IMG/VR virus record: IMGVR_UViG_2531839476_000015
Span: 1-49,036 of that record
Length of the DNA: 49,036 bases
Origin: a virus
Taxonomy: Duplodnaviria; Heunggongvirae; Uroviricota; Caudoviricetes
Direction: 5' to 3' (one strand)
The notes under the pieces were generated by a model, which saw only the letters and a program-made list of their open reading frames with translations, searched no databases and was not told where the DNA came from. The translations under genes were made by a program, and so were the position numbers. Positions 3,059 through 9,522 of this stretch are shown here, piece after piece. How positions within the stretch are numbered: the stretch's first letter is position 1; every line of letters starts with the position of its first letter.

Positions 3059-3829
3059 TCACTCTCCTTTGATGCGAATGCCAGCGGCGCGCTTGGCTTC
3101 ACTTTGTTCCCAAAACCACTTGTGAAGCGCCATAAGCTTTTCGTCAATCGGTGCATATTTGCGATTAAAGTAGGCCTGAGCATCTTTCTCAGATTCGTCC
3201 GGTAATTCGCCAGGGCCAAACAGTGTGTTATAAATCCATGCTAGTCCGCTCTTAGCGTCGCCAGTTGCCTGCCATTCGATAATGGCAGCCTGCATGACCA
3301 GAATGTTTTTCCCGATTAATAGGTCCAGTTCTTTGTACCGGTTGCGGATGTATGCATTCTCGCTTTGTAATTTTGCGTTGCGCTTTTCTGAGGCTTCAAG
3401 TAACGCCTGCTTATCGCGTAGAGCTTCTTCCAGTTCAGCAACATGGCATTCACTATCAATAAGGTTGTTCTCTGCTGCTTCAAGCTCAACACGCAGCTTC
3501 CCAACCGTAAGCGCAATCCCCTCGTTCTCCTGGTCGCGGCGTTTGATGTATTGCTGGTTTCTTTCCCGTTCATCCAGCAGTTCCAGCACGGTAGCCGGGT
3601 TAGCCTCTGCTATGAATTCAGCGTTTGCATAAGCCTGAGCATCTGATTCAATCAGGCAGTTAACATGACATTCCGCAATCACGCCACCGGGTTCTCCTTT
3701 CCATTTTTGGCAAACAAAAACTCCTGTTAAATTGCCGTGCTGGTTAACAGATGTATGCCCTACGATGTAGCTTCCTTTAGTTGCTTTTTCTGCCTTTTCA
3801 CGCAGTGCCTGATAATTAATTTCGCTCAC
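3059..3829 (-). CDS. ea22: Ea22-like protein
   Basis: 256 aa; N-terminus MSEIN.QALRE, internal LELLDERERNQQYIKRRDQENE.IALTVGKLRVELE and C-terminus AGIRIKGE match lambda Ea22 as recalled; start codon is GTG. Confidence 0.7.
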   Translation of the reverse strand: MSEINYQALREKAEKATKGSYIVGHTSVNQHGNLTGVFVCQKWKGEPGGVIAECHVNCLIESDAQAYANAEFIAEANPATVLELLDERERNQQYIKRRDQENEGIALTVGKLRVELEAAENNLIDSECHVAELEEALRDKQALLEASEKRNAKLQSENAYIRNRYKELDLLIGKNILVMQAAIIEWQATGDAKSGLAWIYNTLFGPGELPDESEKDAQAYFNRKYAPIDEKLMALHKWFWEQSEAKRAAGIRIKGE

Positions 3830-4145: not shown

Positions 4146-4361
4146 TCACCGTTCCTTAAAGACGCCGTTTAACATACCGATTGCCAGACTTAAGTGAGTC
4201 GGTGTGAATCCCATCAGCGTTACCGTTTCGCGGTGCTTCTTCAGTACGCTACGGCAAATGTCATCGACGTTTTTATCCGGAAACTGCTGTCTGGCTTTTT
4301 TGATTTCATAATTAGCCTGACGGGCAATGCTGCGAAGGGCGTTATTATGTTCTATTGTCAT
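4146..4361 (-). CDS. Hypothetical protein (71 aa)
   Basis: ORF track 4146..4499; internal Met MTIEHNNALRS begins right after the upstream gene stop (4369); no recognisable motif. Confidence 0.4.
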   Translation of the reverse strand: MTIEHNNALRSIARQANYEIKKARQQFPDKNVDDICRSVLKKHRETVTLMGFTPTHLSLAIGMLNGVFKER

Positions 4362-4368
4362 ATTGGCC

Positions 4369-5121
4369 TCACACTTCGAATGCCAGTTGAGGGGTAAAGA
4401 CGTCCCGTTCAGCGTTGTAATTAAGTGAACTGGCACTGTTGAATGATTCAATGCGTTCCACAAGAACTTGCGTACGGGTTTCTTTACTTGCGGGAGCATA
4501 TGGCGAACCTACCCAGGATTTGTCGATGCCTATATTTCTTGCGACGTTCGTGCTGTCTGCAGACGAAAGCGGTACATGAGTAAAAATGTCTTTATTTAAC
4601 ATCCGTAACCCATGAATCTTGGTGATTGGGTAGCCGTACTGATCTACAACATGACGTATAAGATCGCGTAGTTTAGCCCGACACGCTCTCGGTCGTTTTG
4701 CATCGTATTCCCCCATCGAGCCGATGCAGACGCGGGGAAACTCATGGCACAGACGAATAAATCGCTCATCTGGTTCGTTCATGTGCCACACCGGAGCACC
4801 AATAAATTTACCGTGAGGCCATGCCGCAATCAGGGCGTCATTCTCTTCACTGGTTCCGCCGATAACATCCGGGATAACCGCGAATGAGAAACGAGGGTGA
4901 TTGCCCCAGCGTTCAACAAATCTGTAATATTCATTCCAGTCTACGGCCTTGTTTTTTGTCCAGAATGTGAATGCACCATTATCAAGAGCAAATGATTGGG
5001 TGACTTCGGAAGCCAGATCAATCTGAGCTGGATTAGCAAAACTGATGAATGCGTGTCTGCCTTTCCAGGCTTTCAACGCACAGGTATCGGGAGTTATTGG
5101 ACCACCGTGAAAATGAATCAT
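4369..5121 (-). CDS. Conserved hypothetical early-region protein (250 aa), function unassigned
   Basis: Long ORF with ordinary codon usage between exo and the ea genes; not a lambda gene at this position; I could not match a family from sequence alone. Confidence 0.6.
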   Translation of the reverse strand: MIHFHGGPITPDTCALKAWKGRHAFISFANPAQIDLASEVTQSFALDNGAFTFWTKNKAVDWNEYYRFVERWGNHPRFSFAVIPDVIGGTSEENDALIAAWPHGKFIGAPVWHMNEPDERFIRLCHEFPRVCIGSMGEYDAKRPRACRAKLRDLIRHVVDQYGYPITKIHGLRMLNKDIFTHVPLSSADSTNVARNIGIDKSWVGSPYAPASKETRTQVLVERIESFNSASSLNYNAERDVFTPQLAFEV

Positions 5122-5272
5122 ACACTCTCCCGTTTATTATTTATCTCCTCAGCCAGCCGCTGGGCTTTCAGCGGATTTCGGATAACAGAAAGGCCGGGAA
5201 ATACCCAGCCTCGCTTTGTAACGGAGTAGACGAAAGTGATCGCGCCTACCCGGATATTATCGTGAGGATGCG

Positions 5273-7254: not shown

Positions 7255-7387
7255 TCTTTGGGACTCCTGGCTGATTAAGTATGTCGATAAGGCGTTTCCA
7301 TCCGTCACGTAATTTACGGGTGATTCGTTCAAGTAAAGATTCGGAAGGGCAGCCAGCAACAGGCCACCCTGCAATGGCATATTGCAT
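7223..7387 (-). CDS. cIII: cIII, FtsH protease inhibitor
   Basis: 54 aa [54 protein letters not shown], lambda cIII. Confidence 0.9.
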
Positions 7388-7459
7388 GGTGTGCTCCTTA
7401 TTTATACATAACGAAAAACGCCTCGAGTGAAGCGTTATTGGTATGCGGTAAAACCGCAC

Positions 7460-7828
7460 TCAGACGGCCTTGATAGTCATATCATCTGAATCAAATATTC
7501 CTGATGTATCGATATCGGTAATTCTTATTCCTTCGCTACCATCCATTGGAGGCCATCCTTCCTGACCATTTCCATCATTCCAGTCGAACTCACACACAAC
7601 ACCATATGCATTTAAGTCGCTTGAAATTGCGATAAGCAGAGCATGTTGCGCCAGCATGATTAATACAGCATTTAATACAGAGCCGTGTTTATTGAGTCGG
7701 TATTCAGAGTCTGACCAGAAATTATTAATCTGGTGAAGTTTTTCCTCTGTCATTACGTCATGGTCGATTTCAATTTCTATTGATGCTTTCCAGTCGTAAT
7801 CAATGATGTATTTTTTGATGTTTGACAT
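7460..7828 (-). CDS. ea10: Ea10-like protein
   Basis: 122 aa acidic protein at the lambda ea10 position, immediately upstream (in transcription order) of cIII. Confidence 0.7.
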   Translation of the reverse strand: MSNIKKYIIDYDWKASIEIEIDHDVMTEEKLHQINNFWSDSEYRLNKHGSVLNAVLIMLAQHALLIAISSDLNAYGVVCEFDWNDGNGQEGWPPMDGSEGIRITDIDTSGIFDSDDMTIKAV

Positions 7829-7856
7829 CTATTCATATCCTCATAGATAAAAAATC

Positions 7857-7874
7857 GCCCTCACACTGGAGGGC
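7857..7874 (-). terminator. Hairpin GCCCTC-n6-GAGGGC plus T tract just upstream of ea10 (tL-like, N-antiterminated)
   Basis: Inverted repeat with T run on the minus strand; coordinates approximate. Confidence 0.4.
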
Positions 7875-8016
7875 AAAGAAGATTTCCAATAATCAGAACA
7901 AGTCGACTCCTGTTTAGTTACGAGTGACATTGCTCCGTGTATTCACTCGTTGAAATGAATACACAGTGCAGTGTTTATTCTGTTGTTTGCGTGAAAATGA
8001 AACCCGCCTGAGCGGG

Positions 8017-8745
8017 TTATGACCACTTTTTGTTTGGATTTCGTTGGTGAGCGTGGTTTACAGGATTATTTGATATACCCCATAACTCTGACTCGCTTAT
8101 CTCTACACGAGAGAAAGACCTGCTTTCTTTCAGTTCTTTTATAAACCTAGAACCTACGATGACATCTATTGTCCCAGAAAGTTCTTGTAAAAGATCTTTG
8201 TTTTTTCTGAGGAAGAAAACATCTTCTTTATATTTAATTTTTACATAGAATTTATTCTGTATTTTTAATATATCAAAGCATGGCAGATATCTATATCCCT
8301 CATGCTTTCGCCACTGCTTAACAATTATAACATCTCTTTCATTTACTGCATTAATCAGCCCAAGACCAAGTATAGGTATGAATATTCTATTGTCTGCCGA
8401 AAGCGTACAATTATCACCACCAGGCAAATATGTATAAATCATGTCGGAATTTTTATACGCATCAACGAATGCACGTAAGAATCGTACATATTTTTGCCAT
8501 CCGTTTATACCAAATTTACCATATAAGTATTCTTTATTTGTTAGAAGAAAACTATTTGTATCAGGAGCCTTATCTACAGACCTGTCGATAAGATCTCCAA
8601 CTACGTTTACAAAGTCAAAGACAGAGTTTAATAAGAACAATTGTCTTTCAGTCGGGCGAATTTCAATTATGTAGCCTGGATGAAGACGATATTGCATCTG
8701 CTTACGAAGTATACTGAACGCTTGGGTCCGGGCATCTGAAAGCAA
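8017..8745 (-). CDS. Hypothetical protein in AT-rich insert at the ral/sieB slot; candidate exclusion/defence gene, no family assigned
   Basis: 242-aa ORF from a TTG start (226 aa if ATG at 8697, MQYRLHPGYIIEIRP); DNA is markedly AT-rich versus flanking lambda genes; hairpins at both ends; no Walker A or other motif I can name. Confidence 0.7.
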   Translation of the reverse strand: MLSDARTQAFSILRKQMQYRLHPGYIIEIRPTERQLFLLNSVFDFVNVVGDLIDRSVDKAPDTNSFLLTNKEYLYGKFGINGWQKYVRFLRAFVDAYKNSDMIYTYLPGGDNCTLSADNRIFIPILGLGLINAVNERDVIIVKQWRKHEGYRYLPCFDILKIQNKFYVKIKYKEDVFFLRKNKDLLQELSGTIDVIVGSRFIKELKESRSFSRVEISESELWGISNNPVNHAHQRNPNKKWS

Positions 8746-8893
8746 CTTCCTGTCGCCATCGCCGTGAGCATTGTTTCTAATAAAACTGATATAATTTGCT
8801 AATTTTTCAGCCTCTTTTTTGTGTTTTTTCGTTCTGATGCTGAGTCTATTGGTTTTGGTATGGACTTGTAATCAATTTTCTTCATTACGTACC

Positions 8894-9217
8894 TCATGCC
8901 AATGGAATGGATTTCCCTTTAACCTTTTGTCTTCCTTGACAAGTTATACCGAACTCACTTGGCTTGCTATACCAAACTCGATGATTCTTGCGCTCAATAC
9001 GTTGCAGGTTGCTTTCAATCTGTTCGTGGTATTCAGCCAGCACCGTAAGGTCTATCGGATTCAGTGCGCTTTCTACTCGTGATTTCGGTTTGCGATTCAG
9101 CGAGAGAATAGGGCGGTTAACTGGTTTAGCGCTTACCCCAACCAACAGGGGATTTGCTGCTTTCCATTGAGCCTGTTTCTCTGCGCGACGTTCGCGGCGT
9201 CGTGTTTGTGCATCCAT
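8894..9217 (-). CDS. N: Antiterminator N
   Basis: Internal Met MDAQTRRRERRAEKQAQWKAANPLLVGVSAKPVNRPILSLNRKPKSRVESALNPIDLTVLAEYH... gives 107 aa as lambda N. Confidence 0.93.
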   Translation of the reverse strand: MDAQTRRRERRAEKQAQWKAANPLLVGVSAKPVNRPILSLNRKPKSRVESALNPIDLTVLAEYHEQIESNLQRIERKNHRVWYSKPSEFGITCQGRQKVKGKSIPLA

Positions 9218-9389: not shown

Positions 9390-9420
9390 GCCCTTCTTCA
9401 GGGCTTAATTTTTAAGAGCG
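9390..9420 (-). promoter_or_regulatory. nutL: nutL (boxB hairpin GCCCTGAAGAAGGGC and boxA CGCTCTTA on minus strand)
   Basis: Exact lambda nutL boxB and boxA sequences read on the minus strand upstream of N. Confidence 0.75.
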
Positions 9421-9459: not shown

Positions 9460-9522
9460 AGTATCACCGTCAGTGGTATTTATGTCAACACCGCCAGAGA
9501 TAATTTATCACCGCAGATGGTT
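9460..9522 (-). promoter_or_regulatory. OL1-OL2-OL3 operators with pL promoter (TTGACA ... GATACT on minus strand)
   Basis: Three 17-bp TATCACCG-type half-palindromes (tatcaccgtcagtggta, caacaccgccagagata, tatcaccgcagatggtt) matching lambda OL; -35/-10 hexamers in expected place. Confidence 0.8.

What the first reader, a model, noticed from the sequence alone, without database searches (positions are those of the whole stretch)
7829..8893. AT-rich single-gene insert in the ral/sieB slot of the pL operon
Between N (8894-9217) and ea10 (7460-7828) the lambda ral/sieB genes are replaced by one ORF (8017-8745; 242 aa from TTG, 226 aa from ATG at 8697). Its DNA is conspicuously AT-rich against a roughly balanced backbone, it carries hairpins at both ends (one overlapping its stop near 8001-8018, one with a T tract near 7857-7874), and a possible 27-aa leader ORF (about 8802-8885, MKKIDYKSIPKP...) starts right after the N stop. 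I see no Walker A, HEPN-like Rx4-6H, PD-ExK or other motif I can name. In lambdoid phages this slot carries exclusion or anti-restriction functions, so an unassignable, compositionally foreign gene expressed from pL is a strong candidate for an undescribed abortive-infection or exclusion determinant.
Basis: partly seen in the sequence, partly recalled or inferred. Interest (0 to 1): 0.8.

Follow-up and report, generated by a model that had tools for sequence, protein, structure and literature searches.

The report
Nun-tailed TnpB-like transcription arrest gene
The AT-rich gene after N is a frameshifted copy of a phage 434 gene that joins a DNA/RNA-recognition fold, like the non-nuclease half of the transposon nuclease TnpB, to the exact peptide that phage HK022 Nun uses to jam RNA polymerase; this points to a new kind of targeted transcription-arrest factor.

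Summary
One AT-rich gene (35% GC against 52% for the window) replaces lambda ral-orf28-sieB between N and ea10, with hairpins at 8001-8018 and 7855-7876.

The reading needs correcting in three ways.
- The "27-aa leader ORF" is the gene's true N-terminus. The normal gene is 289 aa (phage 434 CPT_434_48; intact in about 81 of 83 E. coli prophage copies). The window copy has a private 1-nt deletion in an A-run (8824-8829).
- The protein is not motif-less. Its last 14 residues (VNHAHQRNPNKKWS) are identical to the C-terminus of HK022 Nun, inside the segment that holds all known RNA-polymerase-arrest determinants. This is the best-conserved part of the family, and its codons have diverged synonymously.

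In an HK022-type phage a homologue sits exactly in the nun slot.

Best reading: a Nun-type transcription-arrest (exclusion) factor in which a TnpB-derived nucleic-acid-recognition module, either instead of or in addition to the usual arginine-rich motif, provides targeting. The function is inferred, not shown, and the window copy is probably inactive or attenuated.

The parts
8017..8897 (-). Whole gene (normally 289 aa from the ATG at 8885, or 293 aa from the ATG at 8897, which overlaps the N stop as ATGA). Frameshifted in this window. The stop codon is at 8017-8019.
   Evidence: 97.7% identical to phage 434 CDS CPT_434_48, 870 nt. PHROG 12139, E 2e-171, aligned to profile positions 48-289 of 289. 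It differs from intact E. coli prophage alleles (e.g. ECO3183) only by the 1-nt gap.
8824..8829 (-). Frameshift site: the first poly-A run, A6 here and A7 in all intact copies.
   Evidence: Alignments A1 and A4. None of the 83 E. coli genomes carrying the gene has this allele.
8814..8820 (-). A_AAA_AAG heptamer, in phase with the truncated leader frame (ACA AAA AAG). A -1 ribosomal slip here would restore the main frame, changing only KKHKK to KNTKK.
   Evidence: Read directly from the sequence. That it functions as a slippery site is inference only.
8799..8801 (-). Premature TAG that ends the shifted N-terminal frame.
   Evidence: ORF 8799..8897.
8677..8885 (-). N-terminal extension (residues 1-70 of the intact protein): two helices, including a basic stretch (SERKKHKKEAEK). 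Found only in the Nun-tailed subfamily.
   Evidence: AlphaFold model helices 16-38 and 43-65, pLDDT 84-96. Absent from the remote relatives. Aligns only weakly with Nun/N ARMs (E 0.005, probability 7%).
8230..8676 (-). Body (residues 71-219) resembling the TnpB/Cas12 REC lobe: WED beta1, a helical REC insertion, then a WED beta-barrel with one flanking helix.
8062..8229 (-). Linker (residues 220-275): a long helix of only moderate confidence, then the conserved segment ESRSFSRVEISE.
   Evidence: Model helix 221-258, pLDDT 55-68, with 259-281 below 50. The S-[FY]-[SA]-R-V-[DE] segment is shared with the remote relatives.
8020..8061 (-). Nun-type arrest peptide VNHAHQRNPNKKWS (residues 276-289), ending at the C-terminus.
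   Evidence: 14/14 identical to HK022-type Nun residues 96-109. It includes N97, H98, H100, R102, K106, K107, W108 and S109, which PMC5386594 names as functional. It is the most conserved segment of the family, with synonymous codon divergence.
8001..8018 (-). GC-rich hairpin overlapping the stop codon, followed by a T-rich tract; an intrinsic-terminator-like element that closes the N-gene unit.
   Evidence: Found immediately 3' of every tail-bearing gene examined, with stem variants that stay self-complementary.
7855..7876 (-). Second terminator hairpin with a T6 run.
   Evidence: The homologous site is annotated as tL2a in phage O276 and as 'terminator' in phage 434.
8894..9217 (-). Lambda-type N antiterminator gene, directly upstream and coupled to the gene (its stop overlaps the upstream ATG; a GAGG lies 6 nt before the ATG at 8885).
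   Evidence: Pfam N36, E 1.8e-26; sequence.
9390..9404 (-). nutL boxB-type hairpin (GCCCTGAAGAAGGGC on the - strand).
   Evidence: Hairpin found. Its identity as lambda boxB is from my memory of the lambda sequence.
9460..9488 (-). pL-type promoter (TTGACA, 17 nt, GATACT).
   Evidence: 10 of 12 matches. That this matches lambda pL is from memory.

Best explanation
Window 8017-8897 (- strand) is a frameshifted copy of a 289-aa lambdoid-phage gene (phage 434 gp48). The protein is a chimeric transcription-arrest factor with four parts:
- a basic helical N-terminal extension (residues 1-70);
- a folded body (about 71-219) with the architecture of the WED+REC (recognition) lobe of TnpB/Cas12 and no RuvC nuclease lobe;
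- a linker;
- a disordered C-terminal peptide identical to the RNA-polymerase-arresting peptide of HK022 Nun.

The gene is transcribed from pL as an immediate-early gene. It is translationally coupled to N, and a terminator hairpin follows it directly.

Proposed mechanism (inferred):
- The TnpB-like lobe recognises a nucleic-acid feature. In TnpB this lobe holds the TAM DNA duplex, so the target could be a short DNA motif on the upstream duplex, or else a structured nascent RNA.
- That binding delivers the tail through the gap between the beta' zipper and the upstream DNA into the active-site cleft, where it locks the polymerase to the nucleic acids and blocks translocation, as Nun does.
- The encoding phage's own early transcription complexes are N-modified (or put-modified in HK022-type relatives) and so would be refractory. 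Unmodified complexes on competitor phages or on host DNA would be arrested.

Shown here: the sequence identity of the tail, selection on the tail, the fold similarity, the genomic position and the frameshift.
Inferred: arrest activity, the nature of the target, self-immunity and the biological role.

In this window the gene carries a 1-nt deletion in an A-run. This copy is therefore inactive, mis-sequenced, or expressed only at a low level through a -1 slip at an in-phase A_AAA_AAG.
For: Tail
- 14/14 identity to Nun residues 96-109.
- PMC5386594: only Nun 87-109 is visible in the arrested complex, and this segment contains all known arrest determinants. PMC6391919: the short C-terminal segment is sufficient for arrest.
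- Across relatives whose bodies are 39-70% identical, the tail is 77-93% identical. Its codons differ synonymously (Ala uses GCT, GCC, GCA and GCG) and the flanks are unrelated.
- All 119 tail-bearing ORFs found in viral contigs stop right after ...KKW or ...KKWS. Besides the 24 long-class ORFs they include 66 with HK022-Nun-type bodies and 29 other short ORFs; most full-length short proteins carry a visible ARM-type basic head, of varying type. So the tail looks like a portable module.

Body
- AlphaFold model: pLDDT 81.6, pTM 0.71.
- The topology equals the TnpB REC lobe as described in PMC10097598.

Position
- In L003 and L119 the homologue follows an HK022-type oL-pL-putL leader, which is exactly the nun slot.
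- 19 of the 23 full-length long-class copies in viral contigs directly follow an N gene, as do the window, phage 434, L005, L015 and L016.

Self-immunity logic

Stand-alone function
- A remote relative is a single-gene integron cassette.
Against: - There are no experimental data for this protein.
- The long class lacks the equivalents of Nun H93 and R94, and the D-x-M-x-R motif that the short Nun class keeps upstream of the tail. Tail docking could therefore differ.
- The TnpB relationship rests on a predicted structure built from a 23-sequence alignment. Sequence-level support is weak (hhalign E 0.018, probability 3%; no Pfam hit), and the Foldseek E-values are all above 1e-3.
- Phage 434 uses lambda-type N and nut and is viable with this gene intact, so any arrest must spare its own transcription. 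That is assumed, not shown.
- No promoter was detected that would allow expression from a prophage, which fits classical exclusion by a lysogen poorly.
- No PADLOC hit.
- The window copy is frameshifted.
Confidence: 0.55

Rival explanations
1. The protein regulates the phage's own development rather than excluding others. Made together with N from the same message, it would arrest or throttle a fraction of pL/pR (or host) transcription complexes to time the early programme or bias the lysis-lysogeny decision, in competition with N for the same entry into RNA polymerase.
For: Tight coupling to N in 19 of the 23 full-length long-class copies in viral contigs, and in the window. Immediate-early position ahead of a terminator hairpin. 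N and Nun use the same entry next to the upstream DNA. No separate promoter for prophage expression was detected.
Against: Lambda and lambda imm434 do without it and carry ral/sieB in its place, so it is an accessory gene. Homologues also occur with no N gene, in the nun slot of an HK022-type phage. Remote relatives are integron and mobile-element cargo unrelated to phage development.
Confidence: 0.2
2. The Nun tail has no function here and was inherited through recombination at the nun-ea10 flank. The protein would then act only through its body, for example as a DNA-binding anti-restriction or exclusion protein filling the role of Ral or SieB.
For: DNA homology with HK022-type nun begins exactly at the Val-Asn-His codons and continues into the shared downstream flank, so a mosaic junction lies inside the gene. 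The slot normally holds ral and sieB.
Against: The tail is the best-conserved segment in relatives down to 36% identity. It is encoded by synonymously diverged codons, and the flanks beyond the hairpin are unrelated. Every copy ends exactly at ...KKW or ...KKWS.
Confidence: 0.08
3. In this particular window nothing functional is encoded. The gene is a recent pseudogene, or the frameshift is a homopolymer sequencing error and the gene is simply the ordinary intact 434-type allele.
For: A single missing A in an A7 run is the only difference from intact alleles in three E. coli genomes. An independent 1-nt loss in the adjacent A-run occurs in strain USMARC-51408. No convincing Shine-Dalgarno sequence precedes the internal TTG or ATG.
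Against: This rival concerns only this copy, not what the gene is. 23 of 24 copies in viral contigs and about 81 of 83 in E. coli genomes are intact. An in-phase A_AAA_AAG could allow some full-length product (sequence).
Confidence: 0.5
4. It is an RNA-guided factor like TnpB-derived TldR or dCas12, using a guide RNA to place the arrest peptide.
For: TnpB-like fold. There is precedent for nuclease-dead TnpB and Cas12 proteins acting on transcription (PMC10691335 and the abstracts listed).
Against: The lobe that holds most of the omega-RNA scaffold and the heteroduplex (RuvC/TNB) is absent. In TnpB the scaffold binds a WED+RuvC surface, and the heteroduplex lies in a channel formed by WED, REC and RuvC. 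The 3' flank is only 46 nt in L003. In the window the flank is shared with short nun. In the integron cassette only about 55 nt separate the stop from attC. No Rfam hit in the region.
Confidence: 0.07

Closest known systems
HK022 Nun (transcription termination/arrest factor; PHROG 5632)
   Same: Identical C-terminal 14 residues, containing every residue shown to matter for arrest. The ORF ends at the same point. The same GC hairpin follows the stop, and the same downstream flank leads to ea10. A homologue occupies the very nun slot behind pL-putL in an HK022-type phage.
   Different: 289 aa with a confidently folded body of about 150 residues, against 109 aa of intrinsically disordered protein. 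No detectable Nun ARM (BLASTP E 0.77; profile alignment probability 7%). Lacks the equivalents of Nun H93 and R94. In most phages it lies after an N gene rather than replacing it.
TnpB / Cas12 (OMEGA and type V RNA-guided nucleases), REC lobe
   Same: Same fold and topology for WED beta1, the helical REC insertion and the WED beta-barrel. The start motif (beta-strand, then P-x-x-x-Q helix) is in the same register.
   Different: No RuvC, TNB or zinc-finger domains. No Pfam TnpB model hit. No transposon ends or transposase nearby. No room for an omega-RNA. Carries a C-terminal effector peptide instead.
Nuclease-dead TnpB/Cas12 derivatives that act on transcription (TldR, sigma-associated dCas12f, Cas12m)
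   Same: A TnpB scaffold repurposed to act on transcription. TldR is phage-encoded according to the abstract listed. PMC10691335 describes inactivated, exapted TnpBs with likely regulatory roles.
   Different: Those proteins keep an inactivated RuvC lobe and a guide RNA, and the abstracts describe them as blocking initiation or elongation or recruiting sigma. This protein keeps only the REC lobe and carries a peptide known to enter the polymerase cleft.
Lambda Ral and SieB (the genes normally in this slot)
   Same: Same position in the pL operon between N and ea10, and an accessory 'moron'-type function.
   Different: No sequence or family relationship. The predicted mechanism differs (transcription arrest rather than restriction alleviation or exclusion by SieB).

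Membership tests
HK022 Nun family | C-terminal arrest peptide with N97, H98, H100, R102, K106, K107 and W108, and a free carboxylate at S109 | tested here: met
   VNHAHQRNPNKKWS followed by the stop is identical to Nun 96-109. Residue roles come from PMC5386594.
HK022 Nun family | Residues 87-95 (including H93 and R94, which contact the upstream DNA) | tested here: not met
   The window has ELWGISNNP where Nun has KYEDVMHRV. Short Nun variants keep D-x-M-x-[RK]-V; the long class does not.
HK022 Nun family | N-terminal arginine-rich motif that binds nut boxB RNA | tested here: inconclusive
   BLASTP finds no significant N-terminal similarity (E 0.77). The profile comparison aligns residues 11-27 to the ARM at E 0.005 but only 7% probability. 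The stretch is lysine-rich and is predicted to pack against the body.
HK022 Nun family | Small (about 109 aa), intrinsically disordered protein | tested here: not met
   289 aa. Residues 10-225 are modelled at pLDDT mostly 84-96.
HK022 Nun family | Locus: first gene after pL-putL, followed by a terminator hairpin | tested here: met
   Met for homologues P0004/L003 and L119. In the window and most other copies the gene lies after N instead, with the same hairpin.
HK022 Nun family | Arrests RNAP translocation and excludes lambda | not testable with these tools
   Needs biochemistry or a phage challenge.
TnpB / Cas12 | REC lobe: WED OB-fold barrel with a helical REC domain inserted after beta1 | tested here: met
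TnpB / Cas12 | RuvC nuclease domain with the D-E-D triad, and the TNB/zinc-finger domain | tested here: not met
TnpB / Cas12 | Significant sequence homology to TnpB models | tested here: not met
   No Pfam or NCBIfam hit. hhalign against ISDra2 TnpB gives E 0.018, probability 2.6%, over 27 columns.
TnpB / Cas12 | Guide (omega/cr) RNA encoded at or after the 3' end; IS200/605 ends or a CRISPR array | tested here: not met
   The 3' flank is 46 nt in L003. In the window the flank is shared with short nun. The integron cassette has about 55 nt before attC. No relevant Rfam hits.
Known anti-phage defence systems (PADLOC-DB v2) | Match to any defence-protein model | tested here: not met
   0 families at E<=1.
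PHROG 12139 (function unknown) | Full-length match to the family profile | tested here: met
   E 2.4e-171. The window ORF covers profile positions 48-289 of 289; the missing 47 positions correspond to the part upstream of the frameshift.
Integron gene cassette (remote relative P0026 only) | Unit bounded by an attC site with R'' RYYYAAC and R' GTTRRRY, and a breakpoint at G|TT | tested here: met
   An ~870-nt unit, 99.6-100% identical, sits in three different neighbourhoods. It has GTCTAAC, a palindrome, then GTTAGAC, and homology begins at G|TTAG.

The most novel reading that the evidence does not exclude
The gene defines a previously unrecognised class of proteins: the recognition (WED+REC) lobe of a TnpB-type RNA-guided nuclease, stripped of its nuclease, used as a nucleic-acid-targeting head for a short C-terminal effector peptide.

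In lambdoid phages the peptide is the Nun polymerase-jamming tail. That would give a DNA-motif- or RNA-structure-directed transcription-arrest factor from which N- or put-modified phage transcription escapes.

In integron cassettes and other mobile elements the same body carries a different conserved tail (GGLPSLGKRR-like), aimed at an unknown target. Nun itself would then be one member of a modular 'targeting head plus arrest tail' system with interchangeable heads (ARMs of several types, or the TnpB lobe).
Probability: 0.3. Interest if true: 0.85.

Novelty: new variant of a known kind. Interest (0 to 1): 0.72.

Why it matters
Nun is the textbook example of a phage protein that blocks a rival by freezing RNA polymerase, and it has been treated as a one-off, ARM-targeted curiosity of HK022.

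This analysis shows that its arrest peptide is a portable module found on at least three kinds of heads. About a fifth of tail-bearing genes in viral contigs carry a TnpB-like recognition lobe instead of a short ARM-type body, and one of these is in phage 434, one of the founding model phages.

If the inference holds, it gives:
- a natural example of a TnpB scaffold reduced to its recognition lobe and wired to the transcription machinery;
- a new way of choosing which transcription complexes get arrested;
- a testable self/non-self logic, in which N- or put-modified polymerase is immune;
- a compact design for programmable transcription roadblocks.

It also links a lambdoid 'moron' to a family of integron-cassette proteins of unknown function.

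Tried and rejected
- Pfam, PADLOC and NCBIfam scans of the protein and its relatives found nothing.
- The first AlphaFold run, with 5 sequences, was too poor to use (pLDDT 47). It was replaced by a run with 23 sequences.
- The afdb50 fold library was unavailable.
- A profile search of PDB sequences found nothing.
- Rfam found no put, nut or other relevant RNA; the only real hit was the cIII thermoregulator.
- The promoter scan was not above chance (7 found, 5.9 expected), and no usable internal promoter was seen.
- The idea that the N-terminus is a Nun/N-type ARM remains inconclusive.
- The idea that the tail is an accident of the mosaic junction was rejected, because of synonymous divergence and unrelated flanks in the relatives.
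- The idea of an omega-RNA guide was rejected as unlikely, because the flanks are too short or are shared with short nun.
- An RNA fold of the L003 leader was not better than shuffled sequence (z -0.5). The leader was instead identified by homology to HK022 putL.
- Literature: the phage 434 genome announcement does not discuss the gene; no paper in the library mentions both Nun and TnpB; a search for Nun together with phage 434 and HK022 found nothing.
- A resemblance between 'GTIDVILG' and the RuvC-I motif was considered and dropped, because the remote relatives do not share it.
Full report
**Observation**

The ORF at 8017..8745 on the minus strand exists. It is 242 aa from TTG, or 226 aa from the ATG at 8697. 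The gene has 35% GC against 52.2% for the whole window, which makes it the lowest 869-nt stretch in the window. Two terminator-like hairpins are present, at 8018-8001 (overlapping the stop codon) and at 7876-7855 (followed by T6). Alignment with lambda shows that homology resumes about 30 nt downstream of the first hairpin and decays within the 3' end of N. So roughly 7990-8900 replaces lambda's ral-orf28-sieB segment.

**Gene boundaries**

The same DNA (97.7% identity) is present in phage 434. There it is one 870-nt CDS (CPT_434_48, 289 aa) that begins MKKIDYKSIPKP, right at the end of N. A base-by-base alignment shows one indel in 1073 columns: the window has A6 where phage 434 has A7, at 8824-8829. 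The "27-aa leader ORF" is therefore the true N-terminus, cut off by a frameshift that runs into a TAG at 8799-8801.

The gene is found in 83 of 5426 complete E. coli genomes. The three closest copies differ from the window only by this missing base, and none of the 83 shares the A6 allele. One genome (USMARC-51408) has an independent 1-nt loss in the adjacent A-run. In viral contigs 23 of 24 copies are intact. I cannot tell whether the window's frameshift is a recent mutation or a homopolymer sequencing error.

In the shifted frame the codons ACA AAA AAG form an in-phase A_AAA_AAG heptamer (8814-8820). A -1 slip there would restore the reading frame, changing only KKHKK to KNTKK. This is read from the sequence, and its use is speculation.

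**The tail**

The last 20 residues hit the PHROG for Nun-like termination factors. BLASTP against HK022-type Nun, taken from phage O276, shows the final 14 residues (VNHAHQRNPNKKWS) to be identical.

The cryo-EM study of Nun reports that only residues 87-109 are ordered in the arrested elongation complex and that this segment contains all known arrest determinants. It assigns roles to N97, H98, H100, R102, K106, K107, W108 and the C-terminal carboxylate of S109 (PMC5386594). A review states that the short C-terminal segment suffices for arrest (PMC6391919). All of these residues are present here. Nun H93 and R94, which touch the upstream DNA, are not.

**Is the tail an accident of recombination?**

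DNA homology with HK022-type nun starts exactly at the Val-Asn-His codons and runs on through the hairpin to ea10, so a mosaic junction lies inside the gene. But relatives that are only 36-68% identical overall keep the tail at 77-93% identity, which makes it the best-conserved segment. They encode it with synonymously diverged codons (Ala uses GCT, GCC, GCA and GCG) and have unrelated flanks beyond a short hairpin. The tail is therefore under purifying selection.

**The body**

With only five sequences AlphaFold gave a poor model. An exhaustive profile search then found about 17 remote relatives of residues 72-225. With the 23-sequence alignment the model reached pLDDT 81.6 and pTM 0.71. It shows a confident body over residues 10-225, a helix at 221-258 of only moderate confidence, and a disordered tail.

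The order of secondary structure is beta1 (71-77), helices (80-145), then beta-strands with one helix (152-219). This matches the published TnpB REC lobe: WED 1-12 plus 117-176, with the four-helix REC 13-116 inserted after beta1. In TnpB, RuvC begins at residue 185 (PMC10097598). Here only a linker and the tail follow.

Sequence-level support is weak. hhalign aligns residues 71-97 to TnpB 6-32 in the expected register, at E 0.018 and probability about 3%, and no Pfam TnpB model is hit in any member. I therefore claim fold-level similarity to the TnpB/Cas12 recognition lobe. Common descent is likely but not proven, and the nuclease lobe is clearly absent.

**The N-terminal extension**

Residues 1-70 form a basic two-helix extension found only in the Nun-tailed subfamily. 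A profile comparison with the N-termini of short Nun-type proteins puts residues 11-27 in register with their arginine-rich motif, but only at E 0.005 and 7% probability. This test is inconclusive.

**Context**

In the window the upstream ATG (8897) overlaps the N stop (ATGA), and the ATG at 8885 has a GAGG 6 nt upstream. The hairpin closes the unit straight after the stop. The gene should therefore be made with N as an immediate-early product of pL.

The same N-then-gene arrangement is seen in phage 434, L005, L015 and L016 and in 19 of the 23 full-length long-class copies in viral contigs.

In L003 and L119 there is no N gene. The gene follows an operator-pL-putL leader that is 95-97% identical to HK022 putL, which is exactly the nun slot. 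Short Nun and this long protein thus behave like alternative alleles at one locus.

**How widespread is the tail?**

A scan of viral contigs for the invariant tail core found 119 ORFs:
- 66 have HK022-Nun-type bodies.
- 24 are of the long class.
- 29 match neither type. Six of these are fragments of 17-67 aa cut by a contig end. The other 23 are short proteins (83-123 aa), mostly with other ARM-like heads. From my memory of the N proteins, several resemble the P22 and phi21 types.
- A lambda-N-like ARM head (MDAQARRREKRKEKQEEWK) joined to the tail also occurs. The 88-aa proteins that carry it fell into the HK022-type group by BLAST, through similarity in their C-terminal halves.

Every ORF ends at ...KKW or ...KKWS, and a GC hairpin with a T-run follows each one. 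The tail is a portable module on interchangeable heads.

**Remote relatives**

The relatives that share only the body end in a different conserved basic tail (GGLPSLGKRR-like). One of them (P0026) travels as an ~870-nt unit bounded by a canonical attC site (R'' GTCTAAC, R' GTTAGAC, breakpoint G|TTAG) in three unrelated arrays. It is therefore an integron gene cassette, with about 55 nt between its stop codon and attC. Others lie next to integrase/resolvase genes or defence-island-like genes. This argues for a stand-alone single-gene function and against a long co-encoded guide RNA.

**Mechanism (inferred)**

In TnpB the WED/REC cleft holds the TAM DNA duplex. Nun enters the elongation complex through the gap between the beta' zipper and the upstream duplex. 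A REC-lobe module bound on or near the upstream DNA, or to the nascent RNA, would be well placed to feed the tail along that route and lock the polymerase.

[quoted passage not shown] So in both genomic settings the encoding phage's own early complexes could be immune while unmodified complexes are arrested. This fits an exclusion or host-shutoff role, and equally a role in timing the phage's own programme. Phage 434 is viable with lambda-type N and nut and with this gene intact, so the protein must spare those complexes.

**Prior knowledge and novelty**

The only prior notice I found is the GenBank product name "Nun C-terminal peptide-containing protein". The phage 434 genome announcement does not mention the gene (PMC9119081). 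No paper in the searchable library mentions both Nun and TnpB. The survey of exapted TnpBs describes inactivated proteins; the passages I read do not mention any derivative reduced to the REC lobe alone (PMC10691335).

I rate this a new variant of a known kind: a Nun-type arrest factor with a new, TnpB-like targeting body.

**Confidence and limits**
- Architecture (tail identity, selection on the tail, fold, position, frameshift): about 0.85.
- Tail-mediated polymerase arrest: about 0.55.
- A specific exclusion role: lower.

The copy in this window is frameshifted and may be inert.

Noticed in passing
L008:1399-2269, L009:2494-3365 and 3703-3760, L010:697-1563: Remote relative P0026 is carried on an ~870-nt integron gene cassette with a canonical attC site (GTCTAAC...GTTAGAC). 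It occurs in three unrelated cassette arrays. In L009 the next cassette (an HNH gene) is followed by a related attC.
   Followed up: yes
Proteins P0010-P0028 (C-termini), alignment A5: Relatives that share only the body end in a different, strongly conserved basic tail (G-G-L-P-S-L-G-K-R-R or G-G-A-[IV]-E-x-G-K-[KR]-R), preceded by S-x-x-Y-S-R-x-[DN]-F-x-x-L-x-G. What this tail binds is unknown. It suggests one body with exchangeable C-terminal effector peptides.
   Followed up: partly
L040, L046, L069, L070, L075, L079 (88-aa ORFs): Natural N/Nun hybrids: 88-aa proteins with a lambda-N-like ARM (MDAQARRREKRKEKQEEWK...) joined to the Nun arrest tail. Other short tail-bearing proteins have heads that, from memory, resemble the P22 and phi21 ARM types. 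The Nun family is much more modular than the single HK022 example suggests.
   Followed up: partly
L079:3257-3295 and 3556-3594: One viral contig carries two different tail-bearing short genes in tandem (88 aa and 102 aa).
   Followed up: no
L006 (E. coli USMARC-51408, NZ_CP104114) 3208-3411: An independent 1-nt deletion in the second A-run (A6 to A5) of the same gene; RefSeq calls a 226-aa remnant. The two adjacent A-runs may be a mutational hot spot, or a hot spot for sequencing error.
   Followed up: partly
Proteins P0008 and P0009; L090: Chimeric or disrupted versions. P0008 joins the first 23 residues of Bet to the last 73 residues of the gene. P0009 has an unrelated 49-aa N-terminus joined at residue 52. 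L090 has only a 41-aa tail-bearing ORF. The gene is occasionally rearranged.
   Followed up: no
window 7342-7400 (-): Rfam Lambda_thermo (the cIII thermoregulator RNA), 88.5 bits, E 2.6e-21, upstream of cIII as in lambda.
   Followed up: no
L007 (E. coli ECO3183) 4249-5154 and 1378-2346: In a prophage carrying the intact gene, a BstA C-terminal-domain protein lies between the repressor gene and N, and a 'TolA'-annotated gene takes the place of ea10. This shows how variable the accessory slots around the gene are.
   Followed up: no
window 10024-10556 (-): Two overlapping ORFs (63 aa and 121 aa, the latter beginning MQTKSYTIKAFQDFLQ...) upstream of pL, in a region that does not match phage 434. 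This is part of an immunity region I did not characterise.
   Followed up: no
L014:6001-6873: The most divergent Nun-tailed homologue (P0006, 36% identity) lies next to ninG-Q-lysis genes on the opposite strand at a contig end. This differs from both the after-N and the nun-slot settings.
   Followed up: no
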